Below are positions 20,001-59,700 of a stretch of DNA of 64,000 nt, piece by piece (the first letter of the stretch is position 1; each line of letters starts with the position of its first letter). The notes under the pieces were generated by a model, which did no database searches, was not told the origin of the DNA, and saw nothing but the letters and a program-made list of their open reading frames with translations. The position numbers and the translations under genes were made by a program. The DNA is from Euglena gracilis. Its lineage: Eukaryota. Location: positions 8,682,634-8,746,633 of the forward strand of contig CP154954.1 of assembly GCA_039621445.1 (NCBI GenBank), written 5' to 3'.

Positions 20001-23000
20001 TGCAGATGCTGGACAAGATGCAGATGCTGGACAAGATGCAGATGCTGGACAAGATGCAGATGCTGGACAAGATGCAGATGCTGGACAAGATGCAGACAAG
20101 ATGCAGATGCTGGACAAGATGCAGATGATGGACAAGATGCAGGTGCTGGACAAGATGAAGATGCTGGACAAGATGTAGATGCTGGACAAGATGCAGATGC
20201 TGGACAAGATGTAGATGCTGGACAAGATGTAGATGCTGGACAAGATGCTGGACAAGATGCAGATGCTGGGCAAGATGCAGATGCTGGACAAGATGCAGGT
20301 GCTGGACAAGATGCAGATGCTGGACAAGATGCAGATGCTGGAGAGATGCTGTACAAGATGGACATGCTGGACAAGATGTAGATGCTGGACAAGATGCAGA
20401 TGCTGGACAAGATGCAGATGCTGGACAAGATGCAGGTGCTGGACAAGATGCAGATGCTGGACAAGATGCAGATGCTGGACAAGATGCAGATGCTGGACAA
20501 GATGCAGATGCTGGACAAGATGCAGATGCTGGACAAGATGCAGGTGCTGGACAAGATGCAGATGCTGGACAAGATGCAGATGCTGGACAAGATGCAGATG
20601 CTGGACAAGATGCAGACAAGATGCAGAGATGCTGGACAAGATGCAGGTGCTGGACAAGATGCAGATGCTGGACAAGATGCAGATGCTGGACAAGATGCAG
20701 ATGCTGGACAAGATGCAGAGATGCTGGACAAGATGCAGAGATGCTGGACAAGATGTAGATGCTGGACAAGATGCAGATGCTGGACAAGATGCAGATGCTG
20801 GACAAGATGCAGATGCTGGACAAGATGCAGAGATGCTGGACAAGATGCAGATGCTGGACAAGATGCAGATGCTGGACAAGATGCAGATGCTGGACAAGAT
20901 GCAGAGATGCTGGACAAGATGCAGATGCTGGACAAGATGCAGATGCTGGACAAGATGCAGATGCTGGACAAGATGCAGATGCTGGACAAGATGCAGAGAT
21001 GCTGGACAAGATGCAGAGATGCTGGACAAGATGCAGGTGCTGGACAAGATGCAGATGCTGGACAAGATGCAGATGCTGGACAAGATGCAGATGCTGGACA
21101 AGATGCAGATGCTGGACAAGATGCAGATGCTGGACAAGATGCAGACAAGATGCAGATGCTGGACAAGATGCAGATGCTGGACAAGATGCAGATGCTGGAC
21201 AAGATGCAGATGCTGGACAAGATGCAGATGCTGGACAAGATGCAGATGCTGGACAAGATGCAGAGATGCTGGACAAGATGCAGATGCTGGACAAGATGCA
21301 GATGCTGGACAAGATGCAGATGCTGGACAAGATGCAGATGCTGGACAAGATGCAGATGCTGGACAAGATGTAGATGCTGGACAAGATGCAGATGCTGGAC
21401 AAGATGCAGATGCTGGACAAGATGCAGACAAGATGCAGATGCTGGACAAGATGCAGATGCTGGACAAGATGCAGATGCTGGACAAGATGCAGATGCTGGA
21501 CAAGATGCAGATGCTGGACAAGATGCAGATGCTGGACAAGATGCAGAGATGCTGGACAAGATGCAGATGCTGGACAAGATGCAGATGCTGGACAAGATGA
21601 AGATGCTGGACAAGATGCAGATGCTGGACAAGATGCAGATGCTGGACAAGATGTAGATGCTGGACAAGATGCAGATGCTGGACAAGATGCAGATGCTGGA
21701 CAAGATGCAGACAAGATGCAGGTGCTGGACAAGATGCAGATGCTGGACAAGATGCAGATGATGGACAAGATGCAGATGCTGGACAAGATGCAGATGATGG
21801 ACAAGATGCATATGCTGGACAAGATGCAGATGCTGGACAAGATGCAGATGCTGGACAAGATGCAGATGCTGGACAAGATGCAGATGCTGGACAAGATGCA
21901 GAGATGCTGGACAAGATGCAGAGATGCTGGACAAGATGCAGATGCTGGACAAGATGCAGATGCTGGACAAGATGCAGATGCTGGACAAGATGCAGATGAT
22001 GGACAAGATGCTGGACAAGATGAAGATGCTGGACAAGATGTAGATGCTGGACAAGATGCAGATGCTGGACAAGATGTAGATGCTGGACAAGATGTAGATG
22101 CTGGACAAGATGCTGGACAAGATGCAGATGCTGGACAAGATGCAGATGCTGGACAAGATGCAGATGCTGGACAAGATGCAGATGCTGGACAAGATGCAGA
22201 TGCTGGACAAGATGCAGATGCTGGACAAGATGCAGATGCTGGACAAGATGCAGAGATGCTGGACAAGATGCAGATGCTGGACAAGATGCAGATGCTGGAC
22301 AAGATGCAGATGCTGGACAAGATGCAGATGCTGGACAAGATGCAGATGCTGGACAAGATGCAGACAAGATGCAGAGATGCTGGACAAGATGCAGATGCTG
22401 GACAAGATGCAGATGCTGGACAAGATGCAGATGCTGGACAAGATGCAGATGCTGGACAAGATGCAGATGCTGGACAAGATGCAGATGCTGGACAAGATGC
22501 AGATGCTGGACAAGATGCAGAGATGCTGGACAAGATGCAGATGCTGGACAAGATGCAGATGCTGGACAAGATGCAGATGCTGGACAAGATGTAGATGCTG
22601 GACAAGATGCTGGACAAGATGCAGATGCTGGGCAAGATGCAGATGCTGGACAAGATGCAGATGCTGGACAAGATGCAGATGCTGGACAAGATGCAGATGC
22701 TGGACAAGATGCAGATGCTGGACAAGATGCAGATGCTGGACAAGATGCAGATGCTGGACAAGATGCAGATGCTGGACAAGATGCAGATGCTGGACAAGAT
22801 GCAGATGCTGGACAAGATGCAGATGCTGGACAAGATGCAGATGCTGGACAAGATGCAGATGCTGGACAAGATGCAGATGCTGGACAAGATGCAGATGCTG
22901 GACAAGATGCAGACAAGATGCAGATGCTGGACAAGATGCAGATGCTGGACAAGATGCAGATGCTGGACAAGATGCAGATGCTGGACAAGATGCAGATGCT

Positions 23001-26000
23001 GGACAAGATGCAGATGCTGGACAAGATGCAGATGCTGGACAAGATGCAGATGCTGGACAAGATGCAGATGCTGGACAAGATGCAGATGCTGGACAAGATG
23101 CAGATGCTGGACAAGATGCAGATGCTGGACAAGATGCAGATGCTGGACAAGATGCAGGTGCTGGACAAGATGCAGATGCTGGACAAGATGCAGATGCTGG
23201 ACAAGATGCAGATGCTGGACAAGATGCAGATGCTGGACAAGATGCAGATGCTGGACAAGATGCAGATGCTGGACAAGATGCAGATGCTGGACAAGATGCA
23301 GATGCTGGACAAGATGCAGAGATGCTGGACAAGATGCAGATGCTGGACAAGATGCAGATGCTGGACAAGATGCAGATGCTGGACAAGATGCAGATGCTGG
23401 ACAAGATGCAGATGCTGGACAAGATGTAGATGCTGGACAAGATGAAGATGCTGGACAAGATGCAGATGCTGGACAAGATGCAGACAAGATGCAATGCTGG
23501 GCAAGATGCAGATGCTGGACAAGATGCAGGTGCTGGACAAGATGCAGATGCTGGACAAGATGCAGATGCTGGACAAGATGCAGATGCTGGACAAGATGCA
23601 GATGCTGGACAAGATGCAGATGCTGGACAAGATGCAGATGCTGGACAAGATGCAGATGCTGGACAAGATGCAGATGCTGGACAAGATGCAGAGATGCTGG
23701 ACAAGATGCAGATGCTGGACAAGATGCAGATGCTGGACAAGATGCAGATGCTGGACAAGATGCAGATGCTGGACAAGATGCAGATGCTGGACAAGATGCA
23801 GATGCTGGACAAGATGCAGGTGCTGGACAAGATGCAGATGCTGGACAAGATGCAGATGCTGGACAAGATGCAGATGCTGGACAAGATGCAGATGCTGGAC
23901 AAGACGCAGATATGCTGGACAAGATGCAGGTGATGGACAAGATGCAGATGCTGCACAAGATGCTGATGCTGGACAATGATGCAGATGGTGGACAAGATGC
24001 AGATGCTGGACAAGATGTAGATGCTGGACAAGATGTAGATGCTGGACAAGATGCAGATGCTGGACAAGATGCAGATGCTGGACAAGATGCAGGTGCTGGA
24101 CAAGATGCAGATGCTGGACAAGATGCAGATGCTGGACAAGATGCAGATGCTGGACAAGATGCAGATGCTGGACAAGATGCAGATGCTGGACAAGATGCAG
24201 ATGCTGGACAAGATGCAGATGCTGGACAAGATGCAGATGCTGGACAAGATGCAGATGCTGGACAAGATGCAGAGATGCTGGACAAGATGCAGGTGCTGGA
24301 CAAGATGAAGATGCTGGACAAGATGTAGATGCTGGACAAGATGCAGATGCTGGACAAGATGCAGATGCTGGACAAGATGCAGATGCTGGACAAGATGCAG
24401 ATGCTGGACAAGATGCAGATGCTGGACAAGATGCAGATGCTGGACAAGATGCAGATGCTGGACAAGATGCAGATGCTGGACAAGATGCAGATGCTGGACA
24501 AGATGCAGGTGCTGGACAAGATGCAGATGCTGGACAAGATGCAGATGCTGGACAAGATGCAGATGCTGGACAAGATGCAGATGCTGGACAAGATGCAGAT
24601 GCTGGACAAGATGCAGATGCTGGACAAGATGCAGATGCTGGACAAGATGCAGATGCTGGACAAGATGCAGATGCTGGACAAGATGCAGATGCTGGACAAG
24701 ATGCAGATGCTGGACAAGATGCAGATGCTGGACAAGATGCAGATGATGGACAAGATGCAGATGCTGGACAAGATGCAGATGCTGGACAAGATGCAGATGC
24801 TGGACAAGATGTAGATGCTGGACAAGATGTAGATGCTGGACAAGATGCAGATGCTGGACAAGATGCAGACAAGATGCAGGTGCTGGACAAGATGCAGATG
24901 CTGGACAAGATGCAGATGCTGGACAAGATGCAGATGCTGGACAAGATGCAGATGCTGGACAAGATGCAGAGATGCTGGACAAGATGCAGATGCTGGACAA
25001 GATGCAGATGCTGGACAAGATGCAGATGCTGGACAAGATGCAGATGCTGGACAAGATGCAGATGCTGGACAAGATGCAGATGCTGGACAAGATGCAGAGA
25101 TGCTGGACAAGATGCAGGTGCTGGACAAGATGCAGATGCTGGACAAGATGCAGATGCTGGACAAGATGCAGATGCTGGACAAGATGCAGATGCTGGACAA
25201 GATGCAGATGCTGGACAAGATGCAGACAAGATGCAGATGCTGGACAAGATGCAGATGCTGGACAAGATGCAGATGCTGGACAAGATGCAGGTGCTGGACA
25301 AGATGCAGATGCTGGACAAGATGCAGATGCTGGACAAGATGCAGAGATGCTGGACAAGAAGCAGGTGCTGGACAAGATGCAGATGCTGGACAAGATGCAG
25401 ATGCTGGACAAGATGTAGATGCTGGACAAGATGCAGATGCTGGACAAGATGTAGATGCTGGACAAGATGTAGGTGCTGGACAAGATGCAGATGCTGGACA
25501 AGATGCAGACAAGATGCAGATGCTGGGCAAGATGCAGATGCTGGACAAGATGCAGATGCTGGACAAGATGCAGATGCTGGACAAGATGCAGATGCTGGAC
25601 AAGATGCAGATGCTGGACAAGATGCAGAGATGCTGGACAAGATGCAGATGCTGGACAAGATGCAGATGCTGGACAAGATGCAGATGCTGGACAAGATGTA
25701 GATGCTGGACAAGATGCAGATGCTGGACAAGATGTAGATGCTGGACAAGATGTAGATGCTGGACAAGATGCAGAGATGCTGGACAAGATGCAGATGCTGG
25801 ACAAGATGCAGATGCTGGACAAGATGCAGATGCTGGACAAGATGCAGATGCTGGACAAGATGCAGATGCTGGACAAGACGCAGATGCTGGACAAGATGCA
25901 GATGCTGGACAAGATGCAGATGCTGGACAAGATGCAGATGCTGGACAAGATGCAGAGATGCTGGACAAGATGCAGATGCTGGACAAGATGCAGATGCTGG

Positions 26001-27576
26001 ACAAGATGCAGATGCTGGACAAGATGCAGATGCTGGACAAGATGCAGATGCTGGACAAGATGCAGATGCTGGACAAGATGCAGATGCTGGACAAGATGCA
26101 GATGCTGGACAAGATGCAGATGCTGGACAAGATGCAGATGCTGGACAAGATGCAGATGCTGGACAAGATGCAGATGCTGGACAAGATGCAGATGCTGGAC
26201 AAGATGCAGATGCTGGACAAGATGCAGATGCTGGACAAGATGCAGATGCTGGACAAGATGCAGATGCTGGACAAGATGCAGATGCTGGACAAGATGCAGA
26301 TGCTGGACAAGATGCAGAGATGCTGGACAAGATGCAGATGCTGGACAAGATGCAGATGCTGGACAAGATGCAGATGCTGGACAAGATGCAGATGCTGGAC
26401 AAGATGCAGATGCTGGACAAGATGCAGAGATGCTGGACAAGATGCAGATGCTGGACAAGATGCAGATGCTGGACAAGATGCAGGTGCTGGACAAGATGCA
26501 GATGCTGGACAAGATGCAGATGCTGGACAAGATGCAGATGCTGGACAAGATGCAGATGCTGGACAAGATGCAGATGCTGGACAAGATGCAGATGCTGGAC
26601 AAGATGCAGGTGCTGGACAAGATGCAGATGGTGGACAAGATGCAGATGCTGGACGAGATGCAGAGATGCTGGACAAGATGCAGATGCTGGACAAGATGCA
26701 GATGCTGGACAAGATGAAGATGCTGGACAAGATGTAGATGCTGGACAAGATGCAGATGCTGGACAAGATGTAGATGCTGGACAAGATGTAGATGCTGGAC
26801 AAGATGCAGATGCTGGACAAGATGCAGACAAGATGCAGATGCTCGGCAAGATGCAGATGCTGGACAAGATGCAGATGATGGACAAGATGCAGATGCTGGG
26901 CAAGATGCAGATGCTGGACAAGATGCAGATGCTGGACAAGATGCAGATGCTGGACAAGATGTAGATGCTGGACAAGATGCAGATGCTGCACAAGATGCAG
27001 ATGCTGGACAAGATGTAGATGCTGGACAAGATGCAGATGCTGGACAAGATGCAGATGCTGGACAAGATGTAGATGCTGGACAAGATGCAGATGCTGGACA
27101 AGATGCAGATGCTAGACAAGATGTAGATGCTGGACAAGATGTAGATGCTGGACAAGATGCAGATGCTGGACAAGATGCAGATGCTGGACAAGATGCAGAT
27201 GCTGGACAAGATGCAGATGCTGGACAAGATGCAGATGCTGGACAAGATGCAGATGCTGGGCAAGATGCAGATACTGGACAAGATGCAGACATGCTGGACA
27301 AGATGTAGATGCCGGGCAAGATGCAGATGCTGGACACATTTGCATTTTTGTTTTGTGCTCTGATGGCTCAGCTTATGGGGCATTTCCTTTTGATCTTGTC
27401 AAGACAATTCAGAAAATCATTTATCCCTTCACATTTTTTCTGTTACGGATACCCCCACCTATGGCCGACAATTTGCCGACCAGGGCCAACCAGGGCCGAC
27501 CAGGGCCGACCAGGGCTGACCAGGGCCGACCAGGGCCGACCAGTGCACCAAAATGGGAAGTGACCATAGGTGCCTG
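14081..27576. mobile_element. 13.5-kb non-autonomous hAT-like DNA transposon carrying a satellite
   Basis: TIR CAGGCACCTACGG/CCATAGGTGCCTG; perfect 8-bp TSD CACACCAC (14073-14080, 27577-27584); subterminal (GGCCGACCAG)n arrays at both ends. Confidence 0.9.
14723..27336. repeat. 18-bp tandem satellite (GATGCTGGACAAGATGCA)n, roughly 700 copies
   Basis: Directly visible. Includes 20-bp (+GA) and 11-bp variants; scrambled at about 15120-16370. Confidence 0.98.
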
Positions 27577-29106: not shown

Positions 29107-29157
29107 ATGGCGGACCTGGTGTTCACCCCCACTGTGGTCCGCAACCTCCGGGCCCTC
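29107..29157 (+). CDS. MDN1: Midasin exon 1 in window (MADLVFTPTVVRNLRAL); may extend 5' to the AG acceptor at 29047
   Basis: Pre-D1 motif; joins exon 2 across the CCCTCGAG direct repeat. Confidence 0.75.
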
Positions 29158-30648
29158 GAGCATACGTCTCTTTAAGGTTTTGCAGCCCCCCCCCCCTGGG
29201 GGAACCCAATTTTGGCCCACCCAGCCTCAACAGCACCCCCCCAGGGGGGTGCTGCTAGCTCTGCTAGCCAGCCCTCTGGGGGTCCAGCCGAAAATTTTTA
29301 GGCAAAACGCCGAAATTTTTAGAAAGAAAGTGTTCAAAAATGGCCAAAAATTGGGGTTTCGGGGGTGTTTTGGGCGTTTTGGGGGGTGTTAGACACTCAT
29401 TTTTTTTCTTCAAAATTGTGTTTTGCAGGTCATTCTTTGGGCAATTGTCTGATTTCCGTCAAACCCGGCCCATCTCAGGTCCAGCTAGGGTCCAACCCCC
29501 CGCCCCCCCTGGGGCTGGCCAACCCAAATTTCCAGCCACCCCAAATTTCTAGCCCTAGCCCCCCCAGGGTCCTTGAAGAGGTGTATGCCCTCGAGGCCGC
29601 AGTAGACTGCAGCCCCGCCATCCTCGTCGAGGGCATCACCGGAACCGGCAAGACCGCGCTCATCGCCCGACCGGCCCCCCGGCATTAGATCCCCGCAGGT
29701 CGGTCGAAACGGGCGGGGTGCCGAGGCCCCCTCCCCCAGAAGTCGGTCTTCGGCCTTAACTTGCGATCTTGCCCCCCTCCCATTTGTCAGGGTTTTTGGC
29801 CTCGCATGGCCTGCCGGACTTCTCAACATGCAAATTTGACCCCTAAGGTTCCCCCCTGTCCTCACCTTCAAAAAATCTCGGCCTGGGCCAAGCGCCTGGG
29901 GGGGGGGGATACATCCCCCTCGTCCTTGACATGGGTTGCCTATGACACACACACCGTGTAAACTGCACTTTCGCTGTAATTTGGTGGGGGAATGTAGCAA
30001 CGTGGTGCCTTGGGCCAACCAATAACATTCAGTCAAGTGCCTGGGCTGGAAATCAGCAGTAGCTCCGACACGGACCCATGGCTTAGGGATGACCTGACTG
30101 GTGCCAAACACCTTCCTGGTGAGATCCAGCTCAGTTGGGCTGTGGCAGCCGCCACGCCAAAAACCAAACACTTGAAAAGGTTGAGAAGGGTTGCCAAAGG
30201 CCTCTGTCTGAGTCTCTGTCCCTCCTGGAATGTTGGCCTCTTGCCCATATCCATACATACATACATACATACATACATACATACATACATACATACATAC
30301 ATACATACATACATACATACATACATACATACATACATACATACATACATACATACATACATACATACATACATACATACATACATACATACATACATAC
30401 ATACATACATACATACCACTCCCCCCCCTTATTTGAGCACACCCACAGGCCAAAGGACCCCCCAAATGCTCAAATAAGGGGGGGGGTCAAATAAGGGGGG
30501 GTCAAAAATTCCTTTAGAAAGAGGGCAAAAAAATTTTTTGTACCTACCTACCTACCTACCTACCTACCTACCTATCTACCTACCTACCTACCTACGTACC
30601 TACTTACCTACCTACCTACCTACCTACCTACCTACCTACCTACCTACA

Positions 30649-30680
<32 letters not shown>

Positions 30681-33600
30681 CATACATACATACATACATA
30701 CATACATACATACATACATACATACATACATACATACATACATACATACATACATACATACATACATACATACATACATACATACATACATACATACCAC
30801 TCCCCCCCCCCTTATTTAAGCACACCCACAGGCCAAAGGACCCCCCAAATGCTCAAATAAGGGGGGGGGGTCAAATAAGGGGGGGGTCAAAAATTCCTTT
30901 AGAAAGAGGGCAAAAAAAAATTTCGGCGCCTTCGGCGCCTAAAATTTTTTCTTCCCCGGACCCAAATGCTCAATTAAAGGGGGGGGTCAAATAAGGGGGG
31001 ATGAGTGGTACATACACATATACATACATACATACATACATACATACATACATACATACATACATACATACATACATACATACATACATACATACATACA
31101 TACATACATGCATACATGCATACATACATACATACATACATACATACATACATACATACATACATACATACATACATACATACATACATACATACATACA
31201 TACATACATACATACATACATACATACATACATACATACATACATGCATGCATGCATACATACATACCTACACACATACATACGTACATACATACATACA
31301 TACATACATACATACATACATACATACATACATACATACATACATACATACATACATACATACATACATACATACATACATACATACATACATACATACA
31401 TACATACATACATACATACATACATACATACATACATACATACATACATACCACTCCCCCCCCTTATTTGAGCACACCCACATGCCAAAGGACCCCCCAA
31501 ATGCTCAAATAAGGGGGGGGTCAAATAAGGGGGGTTTCAAAAATTCCTTTAGAAAGAGGGCAAAAAATTTTTTCGTACCTACCTACCTACCTACCTACCT
31601 ACCTACCTACCTATCTACCTACCTACCTACCTACCTACCTACCTACCTACCTACCTACCTACCTACCTACCTACCTACCTACCTACATACATACATACAT
31701 ACATACATACATACATACATACATACATACATACATACATACATACATACATACATACATACATACATACATACATACATACATACATACCACTCCCCCC
31801 CCTTATTTGAGCACACCCACAGGCCAAAGGACCCCCCAAATGCTCAAATAAGGGGGGGGTCAAATAAGGGGGGGTTCAAAAATTCCTTTAGAAAGAGGGC
31901 AAAAAAATTTTCGTACCTACCTACCTACCTACCTACCTACCTACCTACCTATCTACCTACCTACCTACCTACCTACCTACCTACCTACCTACCTACCTAC
32001 CTACCTACCTACCTACCTACCTACCTACCTACCTACATACATACATACATACATACATACATACATACATACATACATACATACATACATACATACATAC
32101 ATACATACATACATACATACATACATACATACATACATACATACATACCACTCCCCCCCCTTATTTGAGCACACCCACAGGCCAAAGGACCCCCCAAATG
32201 CTCAAATAAGGGGGGGGGGGGGTCAAATAAGGGGGGGTCAAAAATTCCTTTAGAAAGAGGGCAAAAAAAATTTCGGCGCCTTCGGCGCCTAAAATTTTTT
32301 CTTCCCCGGACCCAAATGCTCAATTAAAGGGGGGGGTCAAATAAGGGGGGATGAGTGGTACATACACATATACATACATACATACATACATACATACATA
32401 CATACATACATACATACATACATACATACATACATACATACATGCGTACATACATACATACATACATACATACATACATACATACATACATACATACATA
32501 CATACATACATACATACATACATACATACATACATACATACATACAGACATACATACATACATACATACATACATACATACATACAACATACATACATAC
32601 ATACATACATACATACATACATACATACATACATACATACATACATACATACATACATACATACATACATACATACATACATACATACATACCACTCCCC
32701 CCCCTTATTTGAGCACACCCACATGCCAAAGGACCCCCCAAATGCTCAAATAAGGGGGGGGTCAAATAAGGGGGGGTTCAAAAATTCCTTTAGAAAGAGG
32801 GCAAAAAAATTTTTCGTACCTACCTACCTACCTACCTACCTACCTACCTACCTACCTACCTACCTACCTACCTACCTACCTACCTACCTACCTACCTACC
32901 TACCTACCTACCTACATACATACCTACATACATACATACATACATACATACATACATACATACATACATACATACATACATACATACATACATACATACA
33001 TACATACATACATACATACATACATACCACTCCCCCCCCTTATTTGAGCACACCCACAGGCCAAAGGACCCCCCAAATGCTCAAATAAGGGGGGGGGTCA
33101 AATAAGGGGGGGTTCAAAAATTCCTTTAGAAAGAGGGCAAAAAAATTTCGTACCTACCTACCTACCTACCTACCTACCTACCTACCTACCTATCTACCTA
33201 CCTACCTACCTACCTACCTACCTACCTACCTACCTACCTACCTACCTACCTACCTACCTACCTACCTACATACATACATACATACATACATACATACATA
33301 CATACATACATACATACATACATACATACATACATACATACATACATACATACATACATACATACATACATACATACATACATACCACTCCCCCCCCTTA
33401 TTTGAGCACACCCACAGGCCAAAGGACCCCCCAAATGCTCAAATAAGGGGGGGGGTCAAATAAGGGGGGGTCAAAAATTCCTTTAGAAAGAGGGCAAAAA
33501 AAAATTTCGGCGCCTTCGGTGCCTAAAATTTTTTCTTCCCCGGACCCAAATGCTCAATTAAAGGGGGGGGTCAAATAAGGGGGGATGAGTGGTACATACA

Positions 33601-35043
33601 CATATACATACATACATACATACATACATACATACATACATACATACATACATACATACATACATACATACATACATACATACATACATACATACATACA
33701 TGCGTACATACATACATACATACATACATACATACATACATACATACATACATACATACATACATACATACATACATACATACATACATACATACATACA
33801 TACATACATACATACATACATACATACATACATACATACATGCATGCATGCATACATACATACCTACACACATACATACGTACATACATACATACATACA
33901 TACATACATACATACATACATACATACATACATACATACATACATACATACATACATACATACATACATACATACATACATACATACATACATACATACA
34001 TACATACATACACACATACATACCACTCCTCCCCCTTATTTGAGCACACCCACATGCCAAAGGACCCCCCAAATGCTCAAATAAGGGGGGGGTCAAATAA
34101 GGGGGGGTTCAAAAATTCCTTTAGAAAGAGGGCAAAAAAATTTTTCGTACCTACCTACCTACCTACCTACCTACCTACCTACCTATCTACCTACCTACCT
34201 ACCTACCTACCTACCTACCTACCTACCTACCTACCTACCTACCTACCTACCTACATACATACATACATACATACATACATACATACATACATACATACAT
34301 ACATACATACATACATACATACATACATACATACATACATACATACATACATACATACATACATACATACATACATACCACTCCCCCCCCTTATTTGAGC
34401 ACACCCACAGGCCAAAGGACCCCCCAAATGCTCAAATAAGGGGGGGGTCAAATAAGGGGGGGGGTCAAAAATTCCTTTAGAAAGAGGGCAAAAAAAATTT
34501 CGTACCTACCTACCTACCTACCTACCTACCTATCTACCTACCTACCTACCTACGTACCTACCTACCTACCTACCTACCTACCTACCTACCTACCTACCTA
34601 CATACATACATACATACATACATACATACATACATACATACATACATACATACATACATACATACATACATACATACATACATACATACATACATACATA
34701 CATACATACATACATACATACATACATACATACATACATACATACATACCACTCCCCCCCCTTATTTGAGCACACCCACAGGCCAAAGGACCCGGGGGGG
34801 GTCAAATAAGGGGGGGGTCAAAAATTCCTTTAGAAAGAGGGCAAAAAAAAATTTCGGCGCCTTCGGCGCCTAAAATTTTTTCTTCCCCGGACCCAAATGC
34901 TCAATTAAAGGGGGGGGTCAAATAAGGGGGGATGAGTGGTACATACATACATACATACATACATACATACATACATACATACATACATACATACATACAT
35001 ACATACATACATACATACATACATACATGCATACATACATACA

Positions 35044-35077
<34 letters not shown>

Positions 35078-35335
35078 CATACATACATACATACATACAT
35101 ACATACATACATACATACATACATACATACATACATACATACATACATACATACATACATACATACATACATACATACATACATACATACATACATACAT
35201 ACATGCATGCATGCATACATACATACCTACACACATACATACGTACATACATACATACATACATACATACATACATACATACATACATACATACATACAT
35301 ACATACATACATACATACATACATACATACATACA

Positions 35336-35369
<34 letters not shown>

Positions 35370-35451
35370 CATACATACATACGTACATACATACATACAT
35401 ACATACATACATACATACATACATACATACATACATACATACATACATACA

Positions 35452-35485
<34 letters not shown>

Positions 35486-38400
35486 CGTACGTACGTACGT
35501 ACGTACGTACATACATACATACATACATACATATATACATGCTTACATACATACATACATACATACAGAGATACATACATGCATACATGCATGCATACAT
35601 ACATACATACCGTGCTTTGTTTTTCTGAGCTAATTTTCAATAAATGTTGGTGCGGGGAGGCTGGGGAAAGGTGCCCCCCTGGCCATGGACCGCCCCCACC
35701 TCGCGCGACTGCGTGATCAGGACCTGGTCACTGTCAACATCGATGACAGCTTCGATGCCAAAGACCTGCTGGGCAACTACATTTGCGGTGATCCCAGTGG
35801 CCCTCACCCCCCATGTTTGTGGTAGATCTTCGTTGGTCGATGCACAAACATATAGAGAGAGATATGTTGGTGATGATGATGATTTACACCAATCTAGAAA
35901 AGAGAATGTGTCTTCATGTGTGGCATGAATGTGATGCTTGCAAATTTAAACTTTATTTCCACCTTGTCCGCAGCGGCACATGTTCAACGCGTCTGCATAC
36001 CTGCATTCATGTTTTTGGGTGGGTGTGTGGGTGGGGTGCATGTGTGTACAAATCCACTTGTGTGGAGTGTGCTCGCCATCTTCCATTTGTCATTCCCGGC
36101 CCCTGATGGGACACCCCGAGAGACGCTGGGCGGGCCGACACCCCCGGCACGTATGTGCTGCAGGCAGGGCCCCTCGCGACGGCGGTCCGCGCCGGGCGGT
36201 GGATCGTCATCGAGGACATCGACCTCGCCAGCTTCGACCTCCTCTCCGTCCTCATCTCCCTCATCGACACCGGCGCCCAGGGCCAGCCCATGCGGGCCAG
36301 TCCCCATAGCCCTGCCCCCCCCATCCAGATGCCTGCAAATAAAAAACGAAAGCAAATTCAAAAAAAATTCGCTTTCACACTCAATTTTTTTTGTTTTGGG
36401 TGTTCCCCCATTGTCTCGGTGGCCAGACACCTAGTCACCACACCTGGTGACGCATCACAATTTTGTTGGGGTGTTTTTTTGCTGCCGTTTGCAACTTTCA
36501 CCCGTTTCACCCCCGTGACAGTCACTCCTGAACGCCGCAGGCGAGGGGCGAGGGGTCTGCCCTGCGAGCAACCTCACCGTGCAGGACCGCGAGATCCCGG
36601 TCCGGCCAGGCTTCCGCCTCTTCGCCACGCAGGCGCTCGGCAGCAGCACCACCGCCACCATGAACCGCACCAAGGTCCCTACCCCATCCCTTGCCATCTC
36701 CCCAAGCTTCCTTTTCCGGCACAGGCGAGCGACAACATGCAACGTTATATATGATGCAGGGCGTTCCGTCTTCTCTTTTGGGCACCATTGTTAGTTGCTG
36801 GCTGTGTTTATTTTCTTATCTTTTCTTTGTCAAGGTCACGAACTCACACCGAAACCCTGCTCAATTTCGAACCTTGAGAGTTTGTCCACTGTTTTCCAGC
36901 CTTTTTTAACTTTTATTAAATTGAAAGTTGAAAGATGGAACTTTTGTTTGGAACTTCCATCTTTCTTCTGGATTTCACTGTTGGAATTGATTGTACAGTT
37001 TGGCGGCCCAAAACGGGGCGCTGGCGGGTCGAAAAACGCTCATTTTCGGCTCAAAAACAGTTTTTCCGGGTCCGGGAGACCGAAAAAACATCGTTTTGGG
37101 CAAAAAAAAATTTCGATTTTTTCGACTTTTTTGACCCGGTTTTGAGCGTTGATGGTTTTGATGGTGTGATGGTTTCGATTGTGCATTTTAATTGTCTTTA
37201 GCCAACGATCATTGTGCTGCTTTGTTCAGGTCCTTTCCTCTTTTAACAAATGGGGCCACAGTCGGGCTCTGGCATGGAGCCTTGTGCCGCAAAGTGATGT
37301 TGGCTTCACTGTGACGGATATTTATGTATTATTTTTTTAATTTTCGGTCTGCAGCCGTTTCAATGCATCCCCATCGCAGGTGATGGTTTGTCACCAATAT
37401 ACCGCTCTCAGTTTAGCTCAAGTGACACGCTGGGGTTGTATATGGTTATATATATACATATATATACATATATATACATATATACAAAGATATATATATA
37501 TATATATACATTTGATCATACATGTGGTTTATACATATGGTTATATATTTTATTTATTATTTATTTATATATTTTATTTATTATTTATTTATCATCATAT
37601 ATATGTATATACATAAACAGACACACACACACACACATATACATACATACACACACAAACACACACACACACACACACTTACATATTATACATATCATTG
37701 GAAACTTAAAAAAATTACAGGGAAGTGGGATATGGATCGAGCGCTTCGGGTAGTCAATGACCAAGACCTCCGGCTCCCCGAGGTCACGACCGGCGGCCAG
37801 GACCCGGAGTCGTCGTCATCTACAGCCTGTCGCTGGCGGAGATGGCGGCGGTGGTGGCGGTGCAAAACCCGGCCATCCCCCGCCGCTTCGTGTCCCACTT
37901 CCTCAACTCCCTCGCCCCGCCGCCCACGGTGCCGCGGGTGGCCGGCCACGTTTGGGGGGCCTGCGGGTGCTCGCCCATGCTTTTCTCGGTCGAGGATATA
38001 TATTCACCGTGCCACCCCCCGGAGGGTGTGATGCAAAACGGGGGTGCGGGGTGCAGGAGGGGGTCTCCCCCCACCTGGACCAGGAGGGGCGTTCCGGATT
38101 ACCTGCCTCGAGCCGAAAATTGGTCGTGCGGTGTCCCCAGTCCCCCCTCCCTGGTCCGACCCCCCATTTACCCTATATCAAGCCCTGCCCGGGATTGGAG
38201 ACCTGGGTGGGGGAGTTGGTGGTCCCTGTGGGGTGCTGAGAGGTCTTACAAAAAAAAGTTGCATGAAGTTGCCGGAAGAGTTGATAGAATTGATCCCCCC
38301 CCTGTCGATGGGTGGGTTCTGCCGACCCCCCCCCCCCAACGACAGCCAGAAACAGCCTTTCAGTGTCGGAAGCCCCCCCCATAGAGCTCTTGGCCTGGCT

Positions 38401-44400: not shown

Positions 44401-45792
44401 TTGGCTCCATACCAACCCCACACCCAGGAAATTGTTCTCCCCGGGAAACTGTCCTGTAAACTGTACCCCCTTACCCGTCTTCATACGACCTGTCTTCTCT
44501 TCTTCTACCCGTTCATCTGTGTCCTAATTTTTTGAAATTTTTCAATTTTTTTTGTTTCCAAAAAAGGCAATCACCAAGGTTAAAAAATTTGTGAAAAATG
44601 CCTTCCCAGATTTTTTCGGTAGAAAAGGTAGGTATCTGACGCTTTTCTAGGTTTTTTCGGTGGGTATTTTTTTAGGTGTAGAAAAATCATTTTAGAAAAT
44701 GCCTTTTTTGTCCACTAGCCCAGACCTGCCCGGGAAACTGTCCTCTGTCACTGTTGCCGCTGACCTGTCCTTATAGGGCCTCTGTACCTGCTGACTGGTC
44801 TGGAGAAAGTTTCCAAGGGGGAGGGTAGTTTGTTTTCTCGTGGCTCTGTGAACTCTATCACTCTTTTGATTATTTTTTTCATGTTCAATGTTCACACCAG
44901 TTTTCACCCGTACACCAGTTCTCACCCATCCACCTGGCCCTGTTGTCAATGCAGCGTGGCACGCTGTACCTTTCGGAGCGGGGGGACACGGAGCCCATTC
45001 CCATGCATCCCAGAGGGGCTCGGCTTTCCATCGTTTAGGAATGCCCTTTCCAAACCAACCTATTTTCTCACACCAACCTACACGAAAGTTTGACTAGGTT
45101 GAAAATTTGAATCGGCTGTGGGTGACGTCTTCTACCCCCCCCCCAGGAAATATGTATATTTTCCCACCAAGACAAGACACGTGTTCTTCCAACCACAGGA
45201 AGGATGTGGTGAGTTCATCCCCGTCATGTGGTGGGTGGGCTGAGTGAGCGCCCTTTCGATATTTTGCGAAGAAGAAGGAGCAACAAAGAAGAAGCCCGAA
45301 AAATTTTGGATCCAAATTAGACACCCAAAAGTGGTCTCCTCAACCCCCCCCCACCCCCAGGCAGGCGTGAGTCGGTGCCAGGTCTTAAAAATAAAAGAAA
45401 AACAAATAAAAAAGTCAAAATAAACAAACAAACAAACAAATAAATAAAAATAAATAAAAATAAATAAATGAAATGAAATGGGAGTTGGTGACGCCGCGCC
45501 CCGGGCCAACTTCCGGCTGTTCGCATGCATGAACCCGCCCACCGACGTCGGCAAGAAGGACCTGCCCCCCGCGCTGCGGTCGCGGTTCACGGAGGTGTAC
45601 GTGCCGGACCAGCTGGACCGCACGGACGTTGCCATCGTGGTCCAGCACTACCTCGCGAACCTCACTGCCAGCCCGCCCGTCGACGACGTCGTCGAGTTCT
45701 ACATCCAGTGTGTCAAGGTGTGTACCGGGTCATGTCTGTGTGCGTGTGTGTGGTGTGCATGTGTTTGTGTGTGTGTGTGTGTGTGTGTGCAT

Positions 45793-45831
<39 letters not shown>

Positions 45832-52500: not shown

Positions 52501-55500
52501 TGTGTACATGCATGTATGTATATACACAGCATACACGCTATATGTATGTGTGAGTGTTTGCACATTGTATATGTTTTATGCACATGGACATGTCTTTTTT
52601 GTATGGTTTCGTGTAAATACTCCAGATCGCAAGGAGCAAGCGGGTGCCCCCATCGAGGACCTCGCCCACCACGGCTTCATGCTGCTCGGCGAGCGGTGCC
52701 GGCGGCCGGAGGAGCGGGCGGTGGTGCGCCAGACGCTGGAGAAGGAGTGCGGCGTCGTGATCGACGAGGCGCGGCTGTACGACTGCTTCGCCAACCCGAC
52801 GCTGAAGCCGCTGCTGGACCGCATGGCGGCCGTGAAGGACACACAGGGCGGCCCCCGGGCGATGGGGGGCCCAGCCCGCGCGTCGGGACAAACGTCCTGC
52901 CGTTTCTCTGAGGCCGTCCGCTTGAAGCGCCAACCGGCTGGCTGTCAGGTGGGAGAGTGAAGTTGAAAGGCCTCCATGGGGGACAGATGGCGTAGAGTAG
53001 AGTACCCCACAGTGCTCCACAGTACTTCACAGTATTCCACAACACCCCCCACCCCCCCACAGACACATACCCCCCACAGACCCCACACTTAAGTGCGGGG
53101 GCTCCGTTTTATATCATATGTGCCCCGGGAGGCTGACATCTCCGATTATCCCGGCTGATTTGGGGGGTATTCTCCACCCACGGCGGCAACAGCATGCTCT
53201 CCACCTGGGAACTCAATTCCGGCTTGGCCACTCCTGTGGTGACTTGGGGTTGAGCGTGCCGCTCTGCCGGCCGACAGCTCACTGAACGCCCTGGTGTGGA
53301 CCCACAGCCTGAAGCGGCTCTTCTCCCTCGTCGGGTGGTGCATGCACTTCGACGAGCCGTTCGTGCTGGTCGGGGACACGGGCGGCGGCAAGACCACCAT
53401 CTGCCAGCTGTACGCCGCCCTGACCGGACAGCAGCTGTCCATCCAGGCTTCTTTTTAAGTCACCTGACCCCCCCCCCCCCCCCCCCGGGGGGGGGGGTGG
53501 GTCCGGGCCGGACTCCCCGGGGGGGGGGGTCCCGCGCCGGAGGCGCCGGGTATACCTTTTTGCCGCGAAGCGCCGAAATTTTTTGAAAATTGCCTTTAGC
53601 GGGCCCGATTTTGGGGGGGTCCCCGCCCCCCCCCCCCTGGGGGGTTCCCGCGCCACCCTGGTTGGGTGGGGGGGGCCCCCCCCTCCCCCCCGGGGGTCTT
53701 AAAAAGAAGCCTGTGTCCATCGTCAACTGCCACCAGCACAGCGAGAGCTCCAGGGACGGCGGTGTGGAGCCCCCAAACTTGGTGATGCGAGCCCCCCCCC
53801 CCCAAACTCTGGCCCAGTCTACTGCATGGATCAGATAGTCCGGATATTAAATATTTTTCAAAAGAGTAATTAAAAGGGAAAAAAAAGAAATAAAATCAAA
53901 ATATATGAACGTTTAATAAAATTGTAAATCATAAATTGTAAATAAACATAAACAAATTTAAGTATATAAATAATTCAAATAATTATAAATTCTGAAAAAA
54001 ATATAAACCTGAGTGTAATATAAATCAAAGATGTTTTTGATCTCTACCAATGGGAAACGGTCCATCAGGCATGCGTCCATTTGTCAGGACTGGCTGGCCA
54101 CCCGGCCAACGTCAGGGCCGGGCCACACCGCCGTGGGGCCGACTTCCTCGGGAGCCTACGGCCCGCCTCAGCAGAACTGGCGGCCCAGGGCAAACTGTTC
54201 GCATGGGCGGACGGCCCGCTGGTGACCGCCGTCCGGGGCGTGCCTTCTTCGGCTGCCAAATTTTGCCCATCAAGAGAGATGTATTTGAAATCGCGCTTTT
54301 TGCATAAAATATTTTGCCCTGGAAAAATTTTTTGTAGTTGGTCGCCAGGCCTGGGGTCTTTGATATTTTCACCCTGTTAAAAGGCAGCTTTGCAGAGGAG
54401 TGAATTTTTTCCGAGTTTGTTATTGTCATTTCAGCTTCCATCGTGGCCGACAGTCAAGAGGAATCAATTCTGGAAGGAGGTTTGGTGGACGAGGGTGAAG
54501 TACCCCCTGAAGAAGAAGAAGAAGAAGAAGAAGAAGAAGAAGAAGAAGAAGAGGAAGACTCACCTCAAAAGAAGAGGAAGTTCCATTATGGAGCGAAGTC
54601 AACTCCAAGCTCCCGTACATATTCCGGCTCCAAAAAACGTGTGGAAAAACGTGGGTGGAGCCAGAATATGCTGCCGTTGCAAGCAATTCCCATTTGGTAC
54701 ATTTGAAGTCCGGGGTGAGTCAATGTGGTGTGTGGCTTGCCTGAAGCTTGCTTAGACTGAACGTGCAGGTGCCATCCATGTCGATTTTCAACGCTTCAGT
54801 GTTTGCCATTGTCTTCCAGGAGGTCGTCTTTGTGAATCATTGACAGGTACACCGGCATTGTCACATGTTTTCGGATTTTGGGCAGCAAAACTCTGTTATA
54901 TTCCTGCATTTTCTCAGGGGTTTTATGCAAGTTGCATTTTTTTGCATTTTTTTTGCATTTTTTTTGCATTTTTTTTGCTTTTTTTTTGACTTGCATAATT
55001 TGAAGGGCCAAGTTGCATATCCTCCCCCTAGACCATGACACCGCAATGGCGAGACGTCGCCCTGGGGCCATGAAGCAGGGGTACCACTTCATGCTCGACG
55101 AGGTCAACCTCGCGGAGGACTCTGTCCTGGAGCGGCTGAACTCCGTCTTCGAGAGCGGCCGCACCTTGACCCTCCCTACCCAGCCCCAGCCGGAAGCGAA
55201 AGCCATCTCGATCACTCTTCTCCGTTCAAGAGAGGAGGTGTGGTGGCCCCCTTCATCGATGTCTCTTTCATCCAAATATATACCGACGTATCTGGGCACA
55301 AACAAACAAGCTTTATCCAAATGGCATCAAATCAAGGCTGGCGTCCACGTCCGTGAGGGCCGAAAACCTACGCCGGGACAAAACAGATTTGCAGTCAGAA
55401 TTCCTCCTCTCCTGCCCTCCCCACCCCCGTGAACCTGCCCTACCTGGTAACCTGCAGGGCCGTACACCAAACTGTCAGAGTCCCTCCCTGTCCTGGGCCA

Positions 55501-56624
55501 ACCTTTCATCACGCGAAGTTTTTTTTTCACGTGAATTTTCTTCACGCGAATTTTTTCTCATGCAATATTTTTTTCACCCAAAATTTTTTTTTCACGCGAA
55601 GATTTTTTTTTTTAGGTCCCCGGTATTGACCAGAAGAAGAGGCAGCACAACCGGGACTTGGGCTGCCCCCGAGAAGGGCAGCCGCAAGGTGCAGGAGCTG
55701 ACGGCGCACCCCGCGTTCCGTGTGATGGCCACCATGAACCCCGGCGGCGACTTCGGCAAGAAGGAGCTGTCCCCCGCGCTGCGGAACCGGCTGACGGAGA
55801 TCTACGTCCCATCCTCGCTGTGGCCTCTTTGCAGCACTCGGGTCCGAGAGAAGAGGACCCCACATAACTCGAAATGTTCGGGTAATGATTGGTGGAAATC
55901 ACCAGCTCACCAATGCAACGTGAAAGGTGCGCAGGGGGGGGATTGATGTCCGCAATTTTTTCCGCAATTCCCACAATTTTCCGCAGTTTTCCGCAATTTT
56001 TTCCCTTTCCAAAATTTTCCCATGAGCCTGAGATGGAAGAAGGCAAAATGAGTTTCAGCCATTCCTTGAACCTTTCACAAGCGAACCCAGGTGCTTTTTT
56101 TCATTGTTTTTTTGCAAGTTTGCCAAATTTTAAAATTTTTGACAAAATTTGGCAATTTCTGGGCCTTTTAGGGTTTCTGCCTGATTTTTGCTGGAAATAA
56201 TTTCGACTGAGAAAAATTTCGCATCCTGGACCAGATTTTACCGGATACCAAAGTTTTTGGTCTATTTTTGGATTTTTGACCCAAGAAATTCCGTATTTCC
56301 AATGCTTTTGGACCTTTTTGTTGCAAAAAAAAAAATGTGCGCAATGGCTCAAAATTTACACCTATATTGCAAAATGACCGAATTTGTAACCTTTTTCTAG
56401 TCCCCTCCAGTGGAAATGTGTACATTCCCGTTATCAATTTTTCCACAATTTTTCCGCAATTTTCCGCAATTTTCCACAATTTCGCAGGCCTCCAAGATCA
56501 ATTTCTCCCCTGGGTGCGTCCAGGATTTTCCCCCCAGTTTGTCCGAGAACAGTTTACAGCTGCACATGTTCCCATTCACGCGCCGGGCCCACCCCCCCCA
56601 CACCCCCCCCCCCACACACACACC

Positions 56625-56717
<93 letters not shown>

Positions 56718-59700
56718 CACAACACAAACACACACACACACACACACACACACAGGGGAGGGGCTCATGGAAAGGGGTCATTCCCTGATGGGCAGCCCGG
56801 AGGACCTGCGGGTCATCTTGGAGACGAAGCTTGGGGCCCGCCCAGAGTTCCTCCCGGTGCTGCTGGATTTCATTGCATTCTTCATGCAGTCGGAGTCGAA
56901 GGGCAAACGGGCAGCCGGGGTCGGATTGTGTCTGGGTGTTGCAGGGTGGGACAAGTCCATTCCAAGTCATGTTCCAGAAACATGGGAATGGGTGTCCAGC
57001 CATCCAGCACGTTTTTTTCCCACGACCAGCCTTTTGCAGCAGGACCCGCGGGACCCCCCGGGGTCTTTGAGAAACACCTTTGGTGACTTCGCAGTATGCC
57101 CGAGCTGGGTTCGTCAGCAGATACGAAATGGTATTCCAATTCAGTTGGGTGATCCGTCCTGTGCAGTTTGTGCGGGTTCCTTTCAAGTTCGTGTGGTTCG
57201 CCTGCATCCCCACCCACGCACGCACGGGCTTGCACGCACGCACGGCGCACGGCACGGCGCACGGCACGGCGTACGGCACGGCATACGGCACGGCGTACGG
57301 CACGGCATATGGCACGGTGTGTGGCACGGCGCACGGCGCGCGCACCCACGCACGGGCGCGCGCCTGCACGCCTGCCCCCGGCACCCCGGCTGGGGGTGCC
57401 CCCTCAGTGTCCGGGACGTGGTGGGCTGGATCGAGTTCATCGACCGCGGCGCCGCGGTGGGCCTCTCCCCGGCGCAGGCGGTGGTCCAGGGCTGCGACAC
57501 CGTTATCCTGGGCGGCGTGGGCATCGGCACTGGCATGGCCAGGGAGGAGTGAGTCCTGGCCGACCCCCACCCCGGGGGTCGTCATGCCGAGAACCTGGCC
57601 GGATGCCGCCCATGAGGTGGTCAGGGTCTTCTGGCGTTGCCCAACCCGTTTTCCGTGAAATCATTTGGGAACATGCCAGGGTCCTTGGTGCCGGACAACC
57701 TGTGGAATTCTGCAAGCATCATTTCCATCATTTCCAGATCACAAGAGTGTGAAAGGTTGATTTTGCAGGTTTTTGCGTCGGCTGGGAGTCAAAAACGTCA
57801 ACGTTTCCTGCTGACCCGGAACCCCCTCCCGCCCACTTGAAACTGCCTCCTGCATCTGCACTCACTGGCTGGTCCTCATTGGGTTTTGCCCCCCCTCTCT
57901 CTGTGCTGACTGGAGGCAGTTTTCCGGGAGGAGGTACAAACCAGAGGACAAATTTATTTTGTTTATTAAATATTAATTATTTATATATTTGTTTTTTTTA
58001 ATAATCATATTCTAATTTACGTTAATTATATTTTCATTATTTATTTTTCTATTATTATTTTCTGCTTCATTAAAATATAATATATTATATACTTATTATT
58101 TATTAATATACATTTTTATTTATGAAAAATATTAATTTGTTTTAACAAGATTTATTGTGGTTTGAAGTCCACCCACCTCCCCAACAGCCCAACCCCACCG
58201 TCTCATTCCGCCCTGCACATGGCCCCGGAGGCAGCGGCGGCTCTCCGCCAGGACTGCCTGGGGCATCTGTGCCGGCTGCTGGCGGGCGCCGGCCACCCCA
58301 CCCGGGCCTTGTTTCTGTGCGACCCTCCGACCACCCCAGCACACATAAACATACAAATGCACAAATAAAAATGCTAATGCACACATAAACATACAAATGC
58401 ACACATAAAAATACAAATGCACACATAAAAATACAAATTCACACATAAAAACATACAAATGCACACATAAACATACAAATGCGCACATAAACATACAAAT
58501 GCACACCTAAAAATGCAAATGCACACCTAAAAATAAAATTGCACACATAAACATACTGCAAATAATAATCCCCATATAACCCTCCTTGATTTGGGGTGTC
58601 TAAATAATTTGCCGAGGGTTATTATTTTTATTTCTGAGGTGCTCGAGGGGGGTAATATGGACAGTCAGGCGATTGCAGGGGGCCAGACACCCTCCCACAC
58701 CCACACCCAACACCCACACAAACACAAACACAAACACCCACACCCACCCACAACCACCACCTATTTGTCATCCTGTGTCCAAACGTCTCCTTGGGGTGGT
58801 GCCATAATCAGAGGCCCGTTGCCATCACGGAGGCGGAGGCGCAGCGGTACTTCTGGGAGGTCAGCACCTCCCCCGCCCCAACGTTGCCCGAGGAGCTGCG
58901 GCGGCACTACTCCTTCGAGTGCGAGACGAGTGGGGCGGGGTGGCTGGCTTCACTGGCGGTGGAGCCCCCCTGTTCTCAAATGAGTGAAACAGAAGAAATC
59001 TGGAAGTATTTTCGCTCCTCACTTTTGGTTTGCACGGCTTCAAATGTTGTGTGTGTGTGTGTGTGTATTATCAGATTAATCATGTTGGTATTTAAGTCAT
59101 CAAATATTGTATTAAAAATGCATATTATAATTCATATAATTTCAATTTTTTGTATTTATACATGTTTTAAAAATATCTAAAACAAGTACAAGATTGAAAT
59201 TGTTAAATTAATGGCGACGTTCAAGAGGGGGCGACCATGACCGCCACGCTTCCCCACCGCCCAACGAAGCTCAACCTCTCCAAGATCGTCCGCGCGCTGG
59301 CGCTGCCCAAGCCCTTGCTGCTGGAGGGCAGCCCTGGTGTGGGCAAGACCACGCTGGTGGAGGCGCTCGGCCCGGCCCGCCCCAGCCCACCAGCCAGCCG
59401 AGTGGGTCACAAAAAACTAAACCCTAATTGTAATTAATAATAATAATAGTAATAATAATAGGGTTTTAAATAAATAAAATAGGGTTTAGTTTTTAATTTA
59501 ATAATAGTAGTTTTTAATAATAGTAATTATTATTATTATTTGAGCTAAGTTTAATAGCTAATCTAATAGAGCTGCGGGTCCAAATAGTGCTGCACCCCCC
59601 AAACATAGCTATGCGAAGTGTGTGGTAGCTGGTGCAGTCTACTGCAGGCATCTTTTGTAACCCGCAGAGAGGGGAAAGGGGGGCGAATTTCCACCCGAAC

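What the first reader, a model, noticed from the sequence alone, without database searches (positions are those of the whole stretch)
29161..29587. TIR decay is biased to G-U wobbles on the sense strand, suggesting selection on the RNA stem
All 3 DNA mismatches in the 17-bp TIR are G-U pairs in the + strand RNA, giving 17/17 pairing. The same holds for GTGGCCTCTTT/AAAGGGGTCAT (intron 55817-56786; 3 wobbles, 11/11). Neutral decay would give A-C mismatches equally often. This indicates the terminal stem is the functional splicing signal.
Basis: partly seen in the sequence, partly recalled or inferred. Interest (0 to 1): 0.7.

Follow-up and report, generated by a model that had tools for sequence, protein, structure and literature searches.

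The report
Euglena-type intron with wobble-paired ends
The flagged stretch is one of Euglena's known non-GT-AG introns, born from a small transposon and cut out through pairing of its two ends; the all-wobble mismatch pattern is real in two introns, but this window does not show it to be a general rule.

Summary
The sequence facts hold. 29161-29177 and 29571-29587 are a 17-nt inverted repeat with 3 DNA mismatches, all G·U on the + strand. The repeat is flanked by a perfect 8-9 nt direct repeat. The 11-bp stem of intron 55817-56786 also has 3 G·U.

Both lie in a midasin gene with about 27 introns, nearly all of the published euglenid "nonconventional" type: 3 nt, stem ... stem, 5-6 nt, then a purine-starting exon. 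Removing 435 nt (element plus 8) joins the exons in frame and aligns without gaps to homologs. No RNA reads could be laid.

The general claim is not established here. In 25 introns whose stems I chose by Watson-Crick pairs only, in-helix mismatches are 12 G·U, 2 A·C and 14 other. Without the two flagged introns they are 7, 2 and 13 (p=0.18). A fixed 12-position count gives 10:7 without the flagged introns. Sense versus antisense stem energy splits 12:13. True mismatches are common at stem positions 6-7, where two of the focal wobbles sit.

That the terminal stem is the splicing signal is already in print: knock-in genetics in 2025 and compensatory changes in 2016. The MITE origin of these introns was proposed in 2014. 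Earlier notes of this scan saw the 3+5=8 geometry elsewhere in this genome.

Verdict: ordinary for this organism. The wobble asymmetry is a reasonable genome-wide test that is still undone.

The parts
29107..29157 (+). Upstream midasin exon piece, ending ...VVRNLRAL
   Evidence: Spliced to 29593, the peptide aligns without gaps across the junction to the first AAA domain of homologs (P0003 residues 3-40, 50% identity; P0117 residues 294-331, 55%).
29153..29160 (+). 5' copy of the 8-bp direct repeat CCCTCGAG, read as a target-site duplication. The repeat is 9 nt if G 29152 is counted.
   Evidence: 8 of 8 identical in the 5+3 register
29158..29592 (+). Nonconventional intron, 435 nt, in the published register: GAG, stem ... 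stem, CCCTC, then an exon starting with G. It can slide over 10 positions without changing the mRNA.
   Evidence: Frame and homology; geometry and slide range. No RNA evidence was obtained.
29161..29177 (+). 5' arm of the terminal inverted repeat and RNA stem
   Evidence: the stem is present in the minimum-energy fold
29571..29587 (+). 3' arm of the terminal inverted repeat and RNA stem. It carries the partners of the three G·U pairs.
29588..29595 (+). 3' copy of the 8-bp direct repeat CCCTCGAG
29593..29667 (+). Downstream exon with the Walker A motif (GITGTGKT) of the first AAA domain
55817..56786 (+). Second flagged intron (970 nt): GCT, stem 55820-55830 ... stem 56771-56781, TCCCT, then an exon starting with G
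   Evidence: The homolog profile prefers 973 nt, so the borders are inferred.
53441..53718 (+). Related young element acting as an intron. It has a perfect 16-bp inverted repeat CAGGCTTCTTTTTAAG (53444-53459 and 53698-53713) and a perfect 8-bp duplication TGTCCATC (53436-53443 and 53714-53721).
   Evidence: Its arm is 12 of 16 identical to the focal 5' arm. Splicing it out gives ...QQLSIVNCHQHSESSDFLGSLRP.

Best explanation
The interval is a nonconventional intron of a euglenid nuclear midasin gene. It derives from a small inverted-repeat transposon that inserted into an exon with an 8-bp target duplication.

In the pre-mRNA the two ends pair. The intron is cut 3 nt before the stem on the 5' side and 5 nt after it on the 3' side, so the element plus one copy of the duplication is removed (427+8 = 435 nt) and the reading frame is restored. 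This is the published Euglena noncanonical splicing geometry. The machinery that does the cutting is unknown.

The three mismatches of the repeat happen to be G·U in the sense RNA, which keeps the stem unbroken. In this window that pattern cannot be told apart from chance plus hand-picking. Other stems of the same gene carry mostly non-pairing mismatches, especially at stem positions 6-7.

Shown here: the sequence anatomy, frame restoration, homology across the junction, and the same geometry in 25 introns. Inferred: actual excision (no RNA could be laid) and the transposon origin.
For: - The gene is midasin: 1294 of 1301 candidates had E<=0.001, and the named hits among the 120 listed are mostly called midasin. 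Exons were mapped by tblastn and by a profile of 45 homologs.
- The junction peptide aligns without gaps to homologs only if 435 nt are removed.
- The direct repeat and the inverted repeat are real.
- The geometry of N3, stem ... stem, N5-6, purine holds widely. 12 of 29 junctions reach 8 or more Watson-Crick pairs in the first 10 stem positions, against 8 of 174 shifted controls. Exon starts are purines in 23 of 25 introns, and CAG-CTG cores occur in 10 of 25.
- Only one convincing GT-AG intron was found, at 45718-46061.
- The stem is in the minimum-energy fold of the sense RNA.
- Published code and genetics: PMC12501133. CA at +4,+5 and TG at -7,-6 are the most conserved stem nucleotides (PMC3935182, passages), and the focal intron meets this.
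- Window-wide tests of wobble bias are weak: 7 G·U to 2 A·C (p=0.18), 10:7 (p=0.63), energy 10 of 23, and per-junction maxima 9 against 10 with 10 ties.
Against: - No RNA evidence.
- The core motif is CAT/ATG, not the CDG/CH'G that the 2025 code requires.
- No second copy of the element lies in the window. The transposon family therefore rests on one related element with 12 of 16 arm identity.
- Against 'chance': counting all 25 introns gives 12 G·U to 2 A·C (p=0.013). This differs from the inverted repeats in the gene region kept as controls, 7:11 (Fisher p=0.012). G·U is also 7 of 22 non-Watson-Crick positions in the independent set, against 15% expected from composition (p=0.04).
- The second intron's stem exists only in the sense RNA (-15.6 against -3.2 kcal/mol).
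Confidence: 0.8

Rival explanations
1. After insertion, substitutions that turn a pair into A·C are purged because they break the RNA stem needed for excision. Those that give G·U are tolerated, so aged inverted repeats show G·U far more often than A·C on the sense strand.
For: - The direction is right in every tally: 12:2 for all introns, 7:2 for the independent set, and 15:7 in the first 12 positions.
- The control inverted repeats of the same transcribed region give 7:11.
- G·U is enriched among non-Watson-Crick positions (p=0.04 in the independent set).
- The stem of 55817-56786 pairs only in the sense RNA.
- A G·U in the core motif (CGG-CTG) is functional and occurs in 10,512 E. agilis introns (PMC12501133 Results and Dataset S8).
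- Compensatory changes were reported in homologous introns (PMC4770533, passage).
Against: - The result is not significant without the two hand-picked introns (p=0.18 and 0.63).
- There is no sense-strand energy advantage overall (12 of 25 introns; Wilcoxon p=0.51).
- Allowing G·U raises the best pairing no more often than allowing A·C (9 against 10 junctions, 10 ties).
- 14 of 28 in-helix mismatches do not pair at all, so stems tolerate real mismatches.
- The sample is one gene.
Confidence: 0.4
2. The G·U excess comes from strand-asymmetric mutation in a transcribed gene, for example excess C-to-T or A-to-G on the non-template strand, and not from selection on the stem.
For: All three focal mismatches can be written as sense-strand transitions. 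Comparison with the related element points to two A-to-G changes in the 3' arm. AT skew is mildly negative over most of the gene, between about -0.17 and +0.08 outside the repeat array.
Against: The control inverted repeats of the same gene region show no G·U excess (7 G·U, 11 A·C). GC skew is near zero over the gene.
Confidence: 0.05
3. The element is not spliced. It would be a recent transposon insertion that disrupts this gene copy, or the exon upstream of it is not part of the mRNA.
For: No RNA evidence was obtained. The core motif is not CDG/CH'G. The midasin N-terminal region of about 290 residues seen in full-length homologs was not found upstream.
Against: The peptide upstream of the element continues the homolog alignment without a gap. 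The geometry and the purine rule are met. The rest of the gene is intact across more than 25 exons.
Confidence: 0.04

Closest known systems
Euglenid nonconventional introns with the genetically defined code 5'-N3CDG ... CH'GN5-6|R (Nomura et al. 2025, PMC12501133; Milanowski et al. 2014 and 2016)
   Same: No GT-AG borders. A direct repeat makes the borders slidable. The stem starts at +4 and ends at -6, with CA at +4,+5 and TG at -7,-6. The 3' spacer is 5 nt and the next exon starts with a purine. Extended pairing follows the core. The intron lies in a gene where nearly all introns are of this type.
   Different: The third core pair is U-A (CAT/ATG) instead of G-C. The stem is unusually long (17 bp). 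The spacers also pair, because the duplicated target holds the palindrome CTCGAG.
MITE-like transposons with 8-bp target duplications, proposed as the source of these introns
   Same: Terminal inverted repeat, perfect 8-bp duplication, no coding capacity, 427 nt. A related element with a perfect repeat and duplication lies in the same gene.
   Different: No further copies were seen in the 64 kb, so mobility and family size are untested here. No transposase was identified.
Introner elements of Micromonas, dinoflagellates and fungi
   Same: Transposon insertions that become introns and carry the splice information with them. The target duplication contributes to exact excision.
   Different: Those are removed by the spliceosome at GT-AG or related sites. 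Here excision follows a stem-defined rule and the machinery is unknown.

Membership tests
Euglenid nonconventional intron (Nomura 2025 code) | Borders are not GT/GC-AG in any register that gives the same mRNA | tested here: met
   The 10 slide registers (first intron base 29152-29161) give no GT/GC...AG pair. The only GC-AG candidate, 29152-29580, removes 429 nt and changes the protein.
Euglenid nonconventional intron (Nomura 2025 code) | 3-nt 5' spacer, 5-6 nt 3' spacer, and a purine at the start of the next exon | tested here: met
   GAG before the stem, CCCTC after it, and the exon starts with G.
Euglenid nonconventional intron (Nomura 2025 code) | Core trinucleotides CDG ... CH'G | tested here: not met
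   The core is CAT ... ATG. 38.8% of E. agilis nonconventional introns also lack the motif (PMC12501133). The older CA/TG rule (PMC3935182) is met.
Euglenid nonconventional intron (Nomura 2025 code) | Base pairing beyond the core that brings the ends together | tested here: met
   17 of 17 pairs in the sense RNA, present in both the minimum-energy and the centroid fold.
Euglenid nonconventional intron (Nomura 2025 code) | Actual removal from the transcript (a circular product was reported) | not testable with these tools
Support is only frame and homology.
MITE with 8-bp target duplication | Terminal inverted repeats flanked by a direct duplication of fixed length | tested here: met
   17-nt repeat with 14 of 17 Watson-Crick pairs; 8 of 8 duplication.
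MITE with 8-bp target duplication | Many dispersed copies of one family | tested here: inconclusive
   No second copy in the window. One related element lies at 53441-53718 (arm 12 of 16 identical, shared internal 13-mer). No genome is held for this window.

The most novel reading that the evidence does not exclude
Genome-wide, the stems of transposon-born nonconventional introns carry far more G·U than A·C on the sense strand, while unspliced copies of the same transposon families are symmetric. The asymmetry varies along the stem: strong at positions 1-5 and 8-12, absent at the relaxed positions 6-7. That would be a direct evolutionary read-out of transposon ends being taken over as a splicing signal, and a map of which stem positions the unknown excision machinery reads.
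Probability: 0.4. Interest if true: 0.45.

Novelty: already known. Interest (0 to 1): 0.25.

Why it matters
If the asymmetry held genome-wide, it would give sequence-only evidence that RNA pairing, and not the DNA repeat, is what selection keeps in these introns. It would also give a cheap way to tell spliced from unspliced transposon copies. The underlying biology is already in print: the terminal stem as the splicing signal, tolerance of a G·U in the core, compensatory changes, and a MITE origin. This window therefore adds two neat examples and a testable refinement, not a new mechanism.

Tried and rejected
- RNA evidence. The look-up of sequencing runs listed no holder on record as RNA: 6 rows were guessed RNA with shares of 0.15-0.18, and 4 were raw RNA runs of the same species label. 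Nothing was laid and I did not resend.
- Whole genome. None is held, so no genome-wide count and no family census were possible.
- Other copies of the focal element in the window: none.
- Other genes in the window that could add introns. 0 of the 150 ORFs sent to Pfam, from 1-14.6 kb and 62.6-64 kb, matched.
- Rfam: no family anywhere in the window.
- Brute-force stem search without homology was too noisy. The first profile scoring run timed out and was repeated with narrower ranges.
- A per-junction comparison of best pairing under WC+GU and under WC+AC showed no difference. It is dominated by chance maxima.
- Junctions dropped before the tallies, because no intron model stood out: 29667-35691, 36340-40786 (exons missing in between), 43986-44937 and 57540-59243. 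The GT-AG intron 45718-46061 was also left out. The best candidate for the first of these (29668-35669) would have added 1 G·U, 1 A·C and 1 other.
- PMC12501133 Dataset S8 does not list the A·C variant (CAG-CCG) separately, so it cannot settle the asymmetry. The SI appendix PDF could not be read.

Full report
**What is at the coordinates**

The window's + strand carries a eukaryotic midasin (MDN1/Rea1) gene from about 29.1 kb to beyond 62.6 kb.
- A 68-residue exon translation found 1294 proteins at E<=0.001 among 1301 candidates. The named hits among the 120 listed are mostly called midasin.
- tblastn with ten of these proteins, and a profile built from 45, map about 30 small exons.
- Earlier notes of this scan call the genome Euglena gracilis. 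I did not test that name. The intron type fits a euglenid.

**The observation**

- 29161-29177 (CATACGTCTCTTTAAGG) and 29571-29587 (CCTTGAAGAGGTGTATG) are inverted repeats with 14 of 17 Watson-Crick pairs. The three mismatches, at stem positions 6, 7 and 13, are all G·U in the + strand RNA.
- The arm pattern with up to 3 mismatches occurs only at these two places. Chance expects 0.06 matches, and 0 of 100 shuffles gave two.
- A perfect direct repeat flanks the element: 9 nt GCCCTCGAG, or 8 nt if the G shared with the arm is left out.
- The second stem (55820-55830 with 56771-56781) is 8 Watson-Crick plus 3 G·U. An unbroken run of 11 or more WC/G·U pairs in this register arose in 3 of 232 shifted controls. 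That stem is therefore unlikely to be chance, and it exists only in the sense RNA.

**It is an intron**

- Removing 435 nt (the 427-nt element plus 8) joins ...VVRNLRAL|EAAVDCSPAILVEGITGTGKT in frame.
- The joined peptide aligns without gaps across the junction to the first AAA domain of homologs: P0003 residues 3-40 at 50% identity and E 6e-7, and P0117 residues 294-331 at 55%.
- No RNA could be laid.

**It is the known euglenid nonconventional type**

The published code is 5'-N3CDG ... CH'GN5-6|R (PMC12501133; abstract and the whole Results read).
- In that register the focal intron reads GAG, stem ... stem, CCCTC, then an exon starting with G. This is 3+5 = 8 nt, the length of the duplication.
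- The second intron reads GCT, stem ... stem, TCCCT, then G.
- The same geometry recurs through the gene. 12 of 29 junctions reach 8 or more Watson-Crick pairs in the first ten stem positions, against 8 of 174 shifted controls. None of the 174 controls reaches 9.
- In 25 curated introns the next exon starts with a purine in 23, and the core is CAG-CTG in 10.
- Only 45718-46061 is a convincing GT-AG intron.
- The focal core is CAT/ATG. It fails the CDG/CH'G rule but meets the older CA/TG rule (PMC3935182, passages).

**Transposon origin**

- The perfect 8-bp duplication and the long repeat fit a MITE-like insertion. This idea is in print (PMC3935182 and PMC11282704, passages). Earlier notes of this scan made the same point on other DNA of this genome (e1-7363118 and e1-7360881).
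- New here: intron 53441-53718 has a perfect 16-bp repeat (CAGGCTTCTTTTTAAG) and a perfect 8-bp duplication (TGTCCATC). Its removal yields the conserved ...IVNCHQHSESSDFLG....
- Its arm is 12 of 16 identical to the focal 5' arm and 10 of 16 to the focal 3' arm. Both elements hold CGCCGAAATTTTT inside.
- If that arm stands for the family, two of the three focal mismatches (positions 7 and 13) are A-to-G changes in the 3' arm. This is an inference.
- No second copy of the focal element is in the window.

**Is the G·U bias more than chance?**

I fixed the intron models by frame, homolog profile and Watson-Crick pairs only. That criterion is the same on both strands.

| Test | All 25 introns | Without the two flagged (23) |
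|---|---|---|
| (a) In-helix tally: Watson-Crick / G·U / A·C / other | 251 / 12 / 2 / 14; G·U against A·C p=0.013 | 227 / 7 / 2 / 13; p=0.18 |
| (b) First 12 stem positions, G·U:A·C (hand count from the strings) | 15:7 | 10:7; p=0.63 |
| (c) Hairpin energy of the arms, sense more stable than antisense | 12 of 25; Wilcoxon p=0.51 | 10 of 23; p=1.0 |

- For (a), the share expected from arm composition is 0.54.
- For (c), the two flagged introns (-6.8 and -12.4 kcal/mol) and one other (-7.1) are the outliers.
- (d) Best pairing per junction under WC+GU against WC+AC: G·U wins at 9 junctions, A·C at 10, with 10 ties, out of 29.
- (e) Controls. Of the 30 inverted repeats kept in the gene region, the three that are intron terminal stems carry no mismatches. 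The set shows 7 G·U, 11 A·C and 19 other. The 19 kept before 29.1 kb show 6, 3 and 13. This argues against a transcription-linked mutational bias. It differs from the full terminal set (Fisher p=0.012) but not from the independent set (p=0.10).

**A point against reading the focal wobbles as selected**

- Non-Watson-Crick positions inside helices cluster at stem positions 6 (5 cases) and 7 (8 cases), out of 30.
- At these two positions there are 6 G·U, 7 non-pairing mismatches and no A·C.
- Seven introns therefore appear to do without a pair there, and two of the three focal wobbles sit exactly there.

**What is already known**

- The necessity of terminal pairing was shown by knock-in genetics. 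A synthetic intron with the pairing removed fails, and CGG-CTG introns are spliced.
- CGG-CTG accounts for 10,512 E. agilis introns (Dataset S8).
- Compensatory changes in homologous introns were reported in 2016 (PMC4770533, passage).
- I found no statement on G·U against A·C asymmetry in these papers. The terms 'wobble' and 'G-U' were searched in PMC11170887, PMC3935182 and PMC4770533, and 'wobble' alone in PMC11282704.
- The SI appendix of PMC12501133 could not be read and may bear on this.

**Verdict**

The anatomy is confirmed and the mechanism is the known one. The claimed bias is plausible but unproven, and the finding is ordinary for this organism.

Noticed in passing
window 53436-53721: A 278-nt nonconventional intron (53441-53718) with a perfect 16-bp inverted repeat and a perfect 8-bp duplication TGTCCATC. 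It looks like a very young transposon-born intron. Its arms and an internal 13-mer resemble those of the focal element.
   Followed up: partly
window, stems of 25 introns (29158-62501): Non-pairing positions inside the terminal helices cluster at stem positions 6 and 7 (13 of 30), as if a small internal loop is tolerated or preferred there.
   Followed up: partly
window 14734-27336: A 12.6-kb satellite of an 18-bp unit (CAGATGCTGGACAAGATG, about 703 copies, 90% matches) with strong GC and AT skew. It lies just upstream of the first recognisable midasin exon.
   Followed up: no
window 29668-35690: A roughly 6-kb intron filled with a (TACA)n-type array (31009-35610). The array is interspersed with many copies of a 19-nt unit, CCCCCCCCTTATTTGAGCA, and its reverse complement.
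   Followed up: no
window 7207-10145 and 47841-49005: A repeated inverted-repeat end of the form C-run+GGGAAACTGTCA occurs in both orientations upstream of the gene and inside introns. It is probably another MITE family, with copies that are not at intron borders.
   Followed up: no
window 29150-29600: The duplicated target holds the palindrome CTCGAG. In the fold, the stem therefore runs on through the 3-nt and 5-nt spacers into the exons.
   Followed up: partly
window 1-29106: In full-length homologs the motif encoded at 29107 lies near residue 290, but no exons for that N-terminal part were found upstream (no tblastn hits; 0 of the 150 ORFs sent to Pfam matched, most of them from 1-14.6 kb). 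The in-frame ATG at 29107 may or may not be the start codon.
   Followed up: partly
window 48852-49144: The best stem-defined intron here (CAG...CTG, in frame) would leave a 9-residue insertion in the conserved RINNH..DLQEY motif. The homolog profile prefers a removal of 317-323 nt that has no stem. This is unresolved without RNA.
   Followed up: partly
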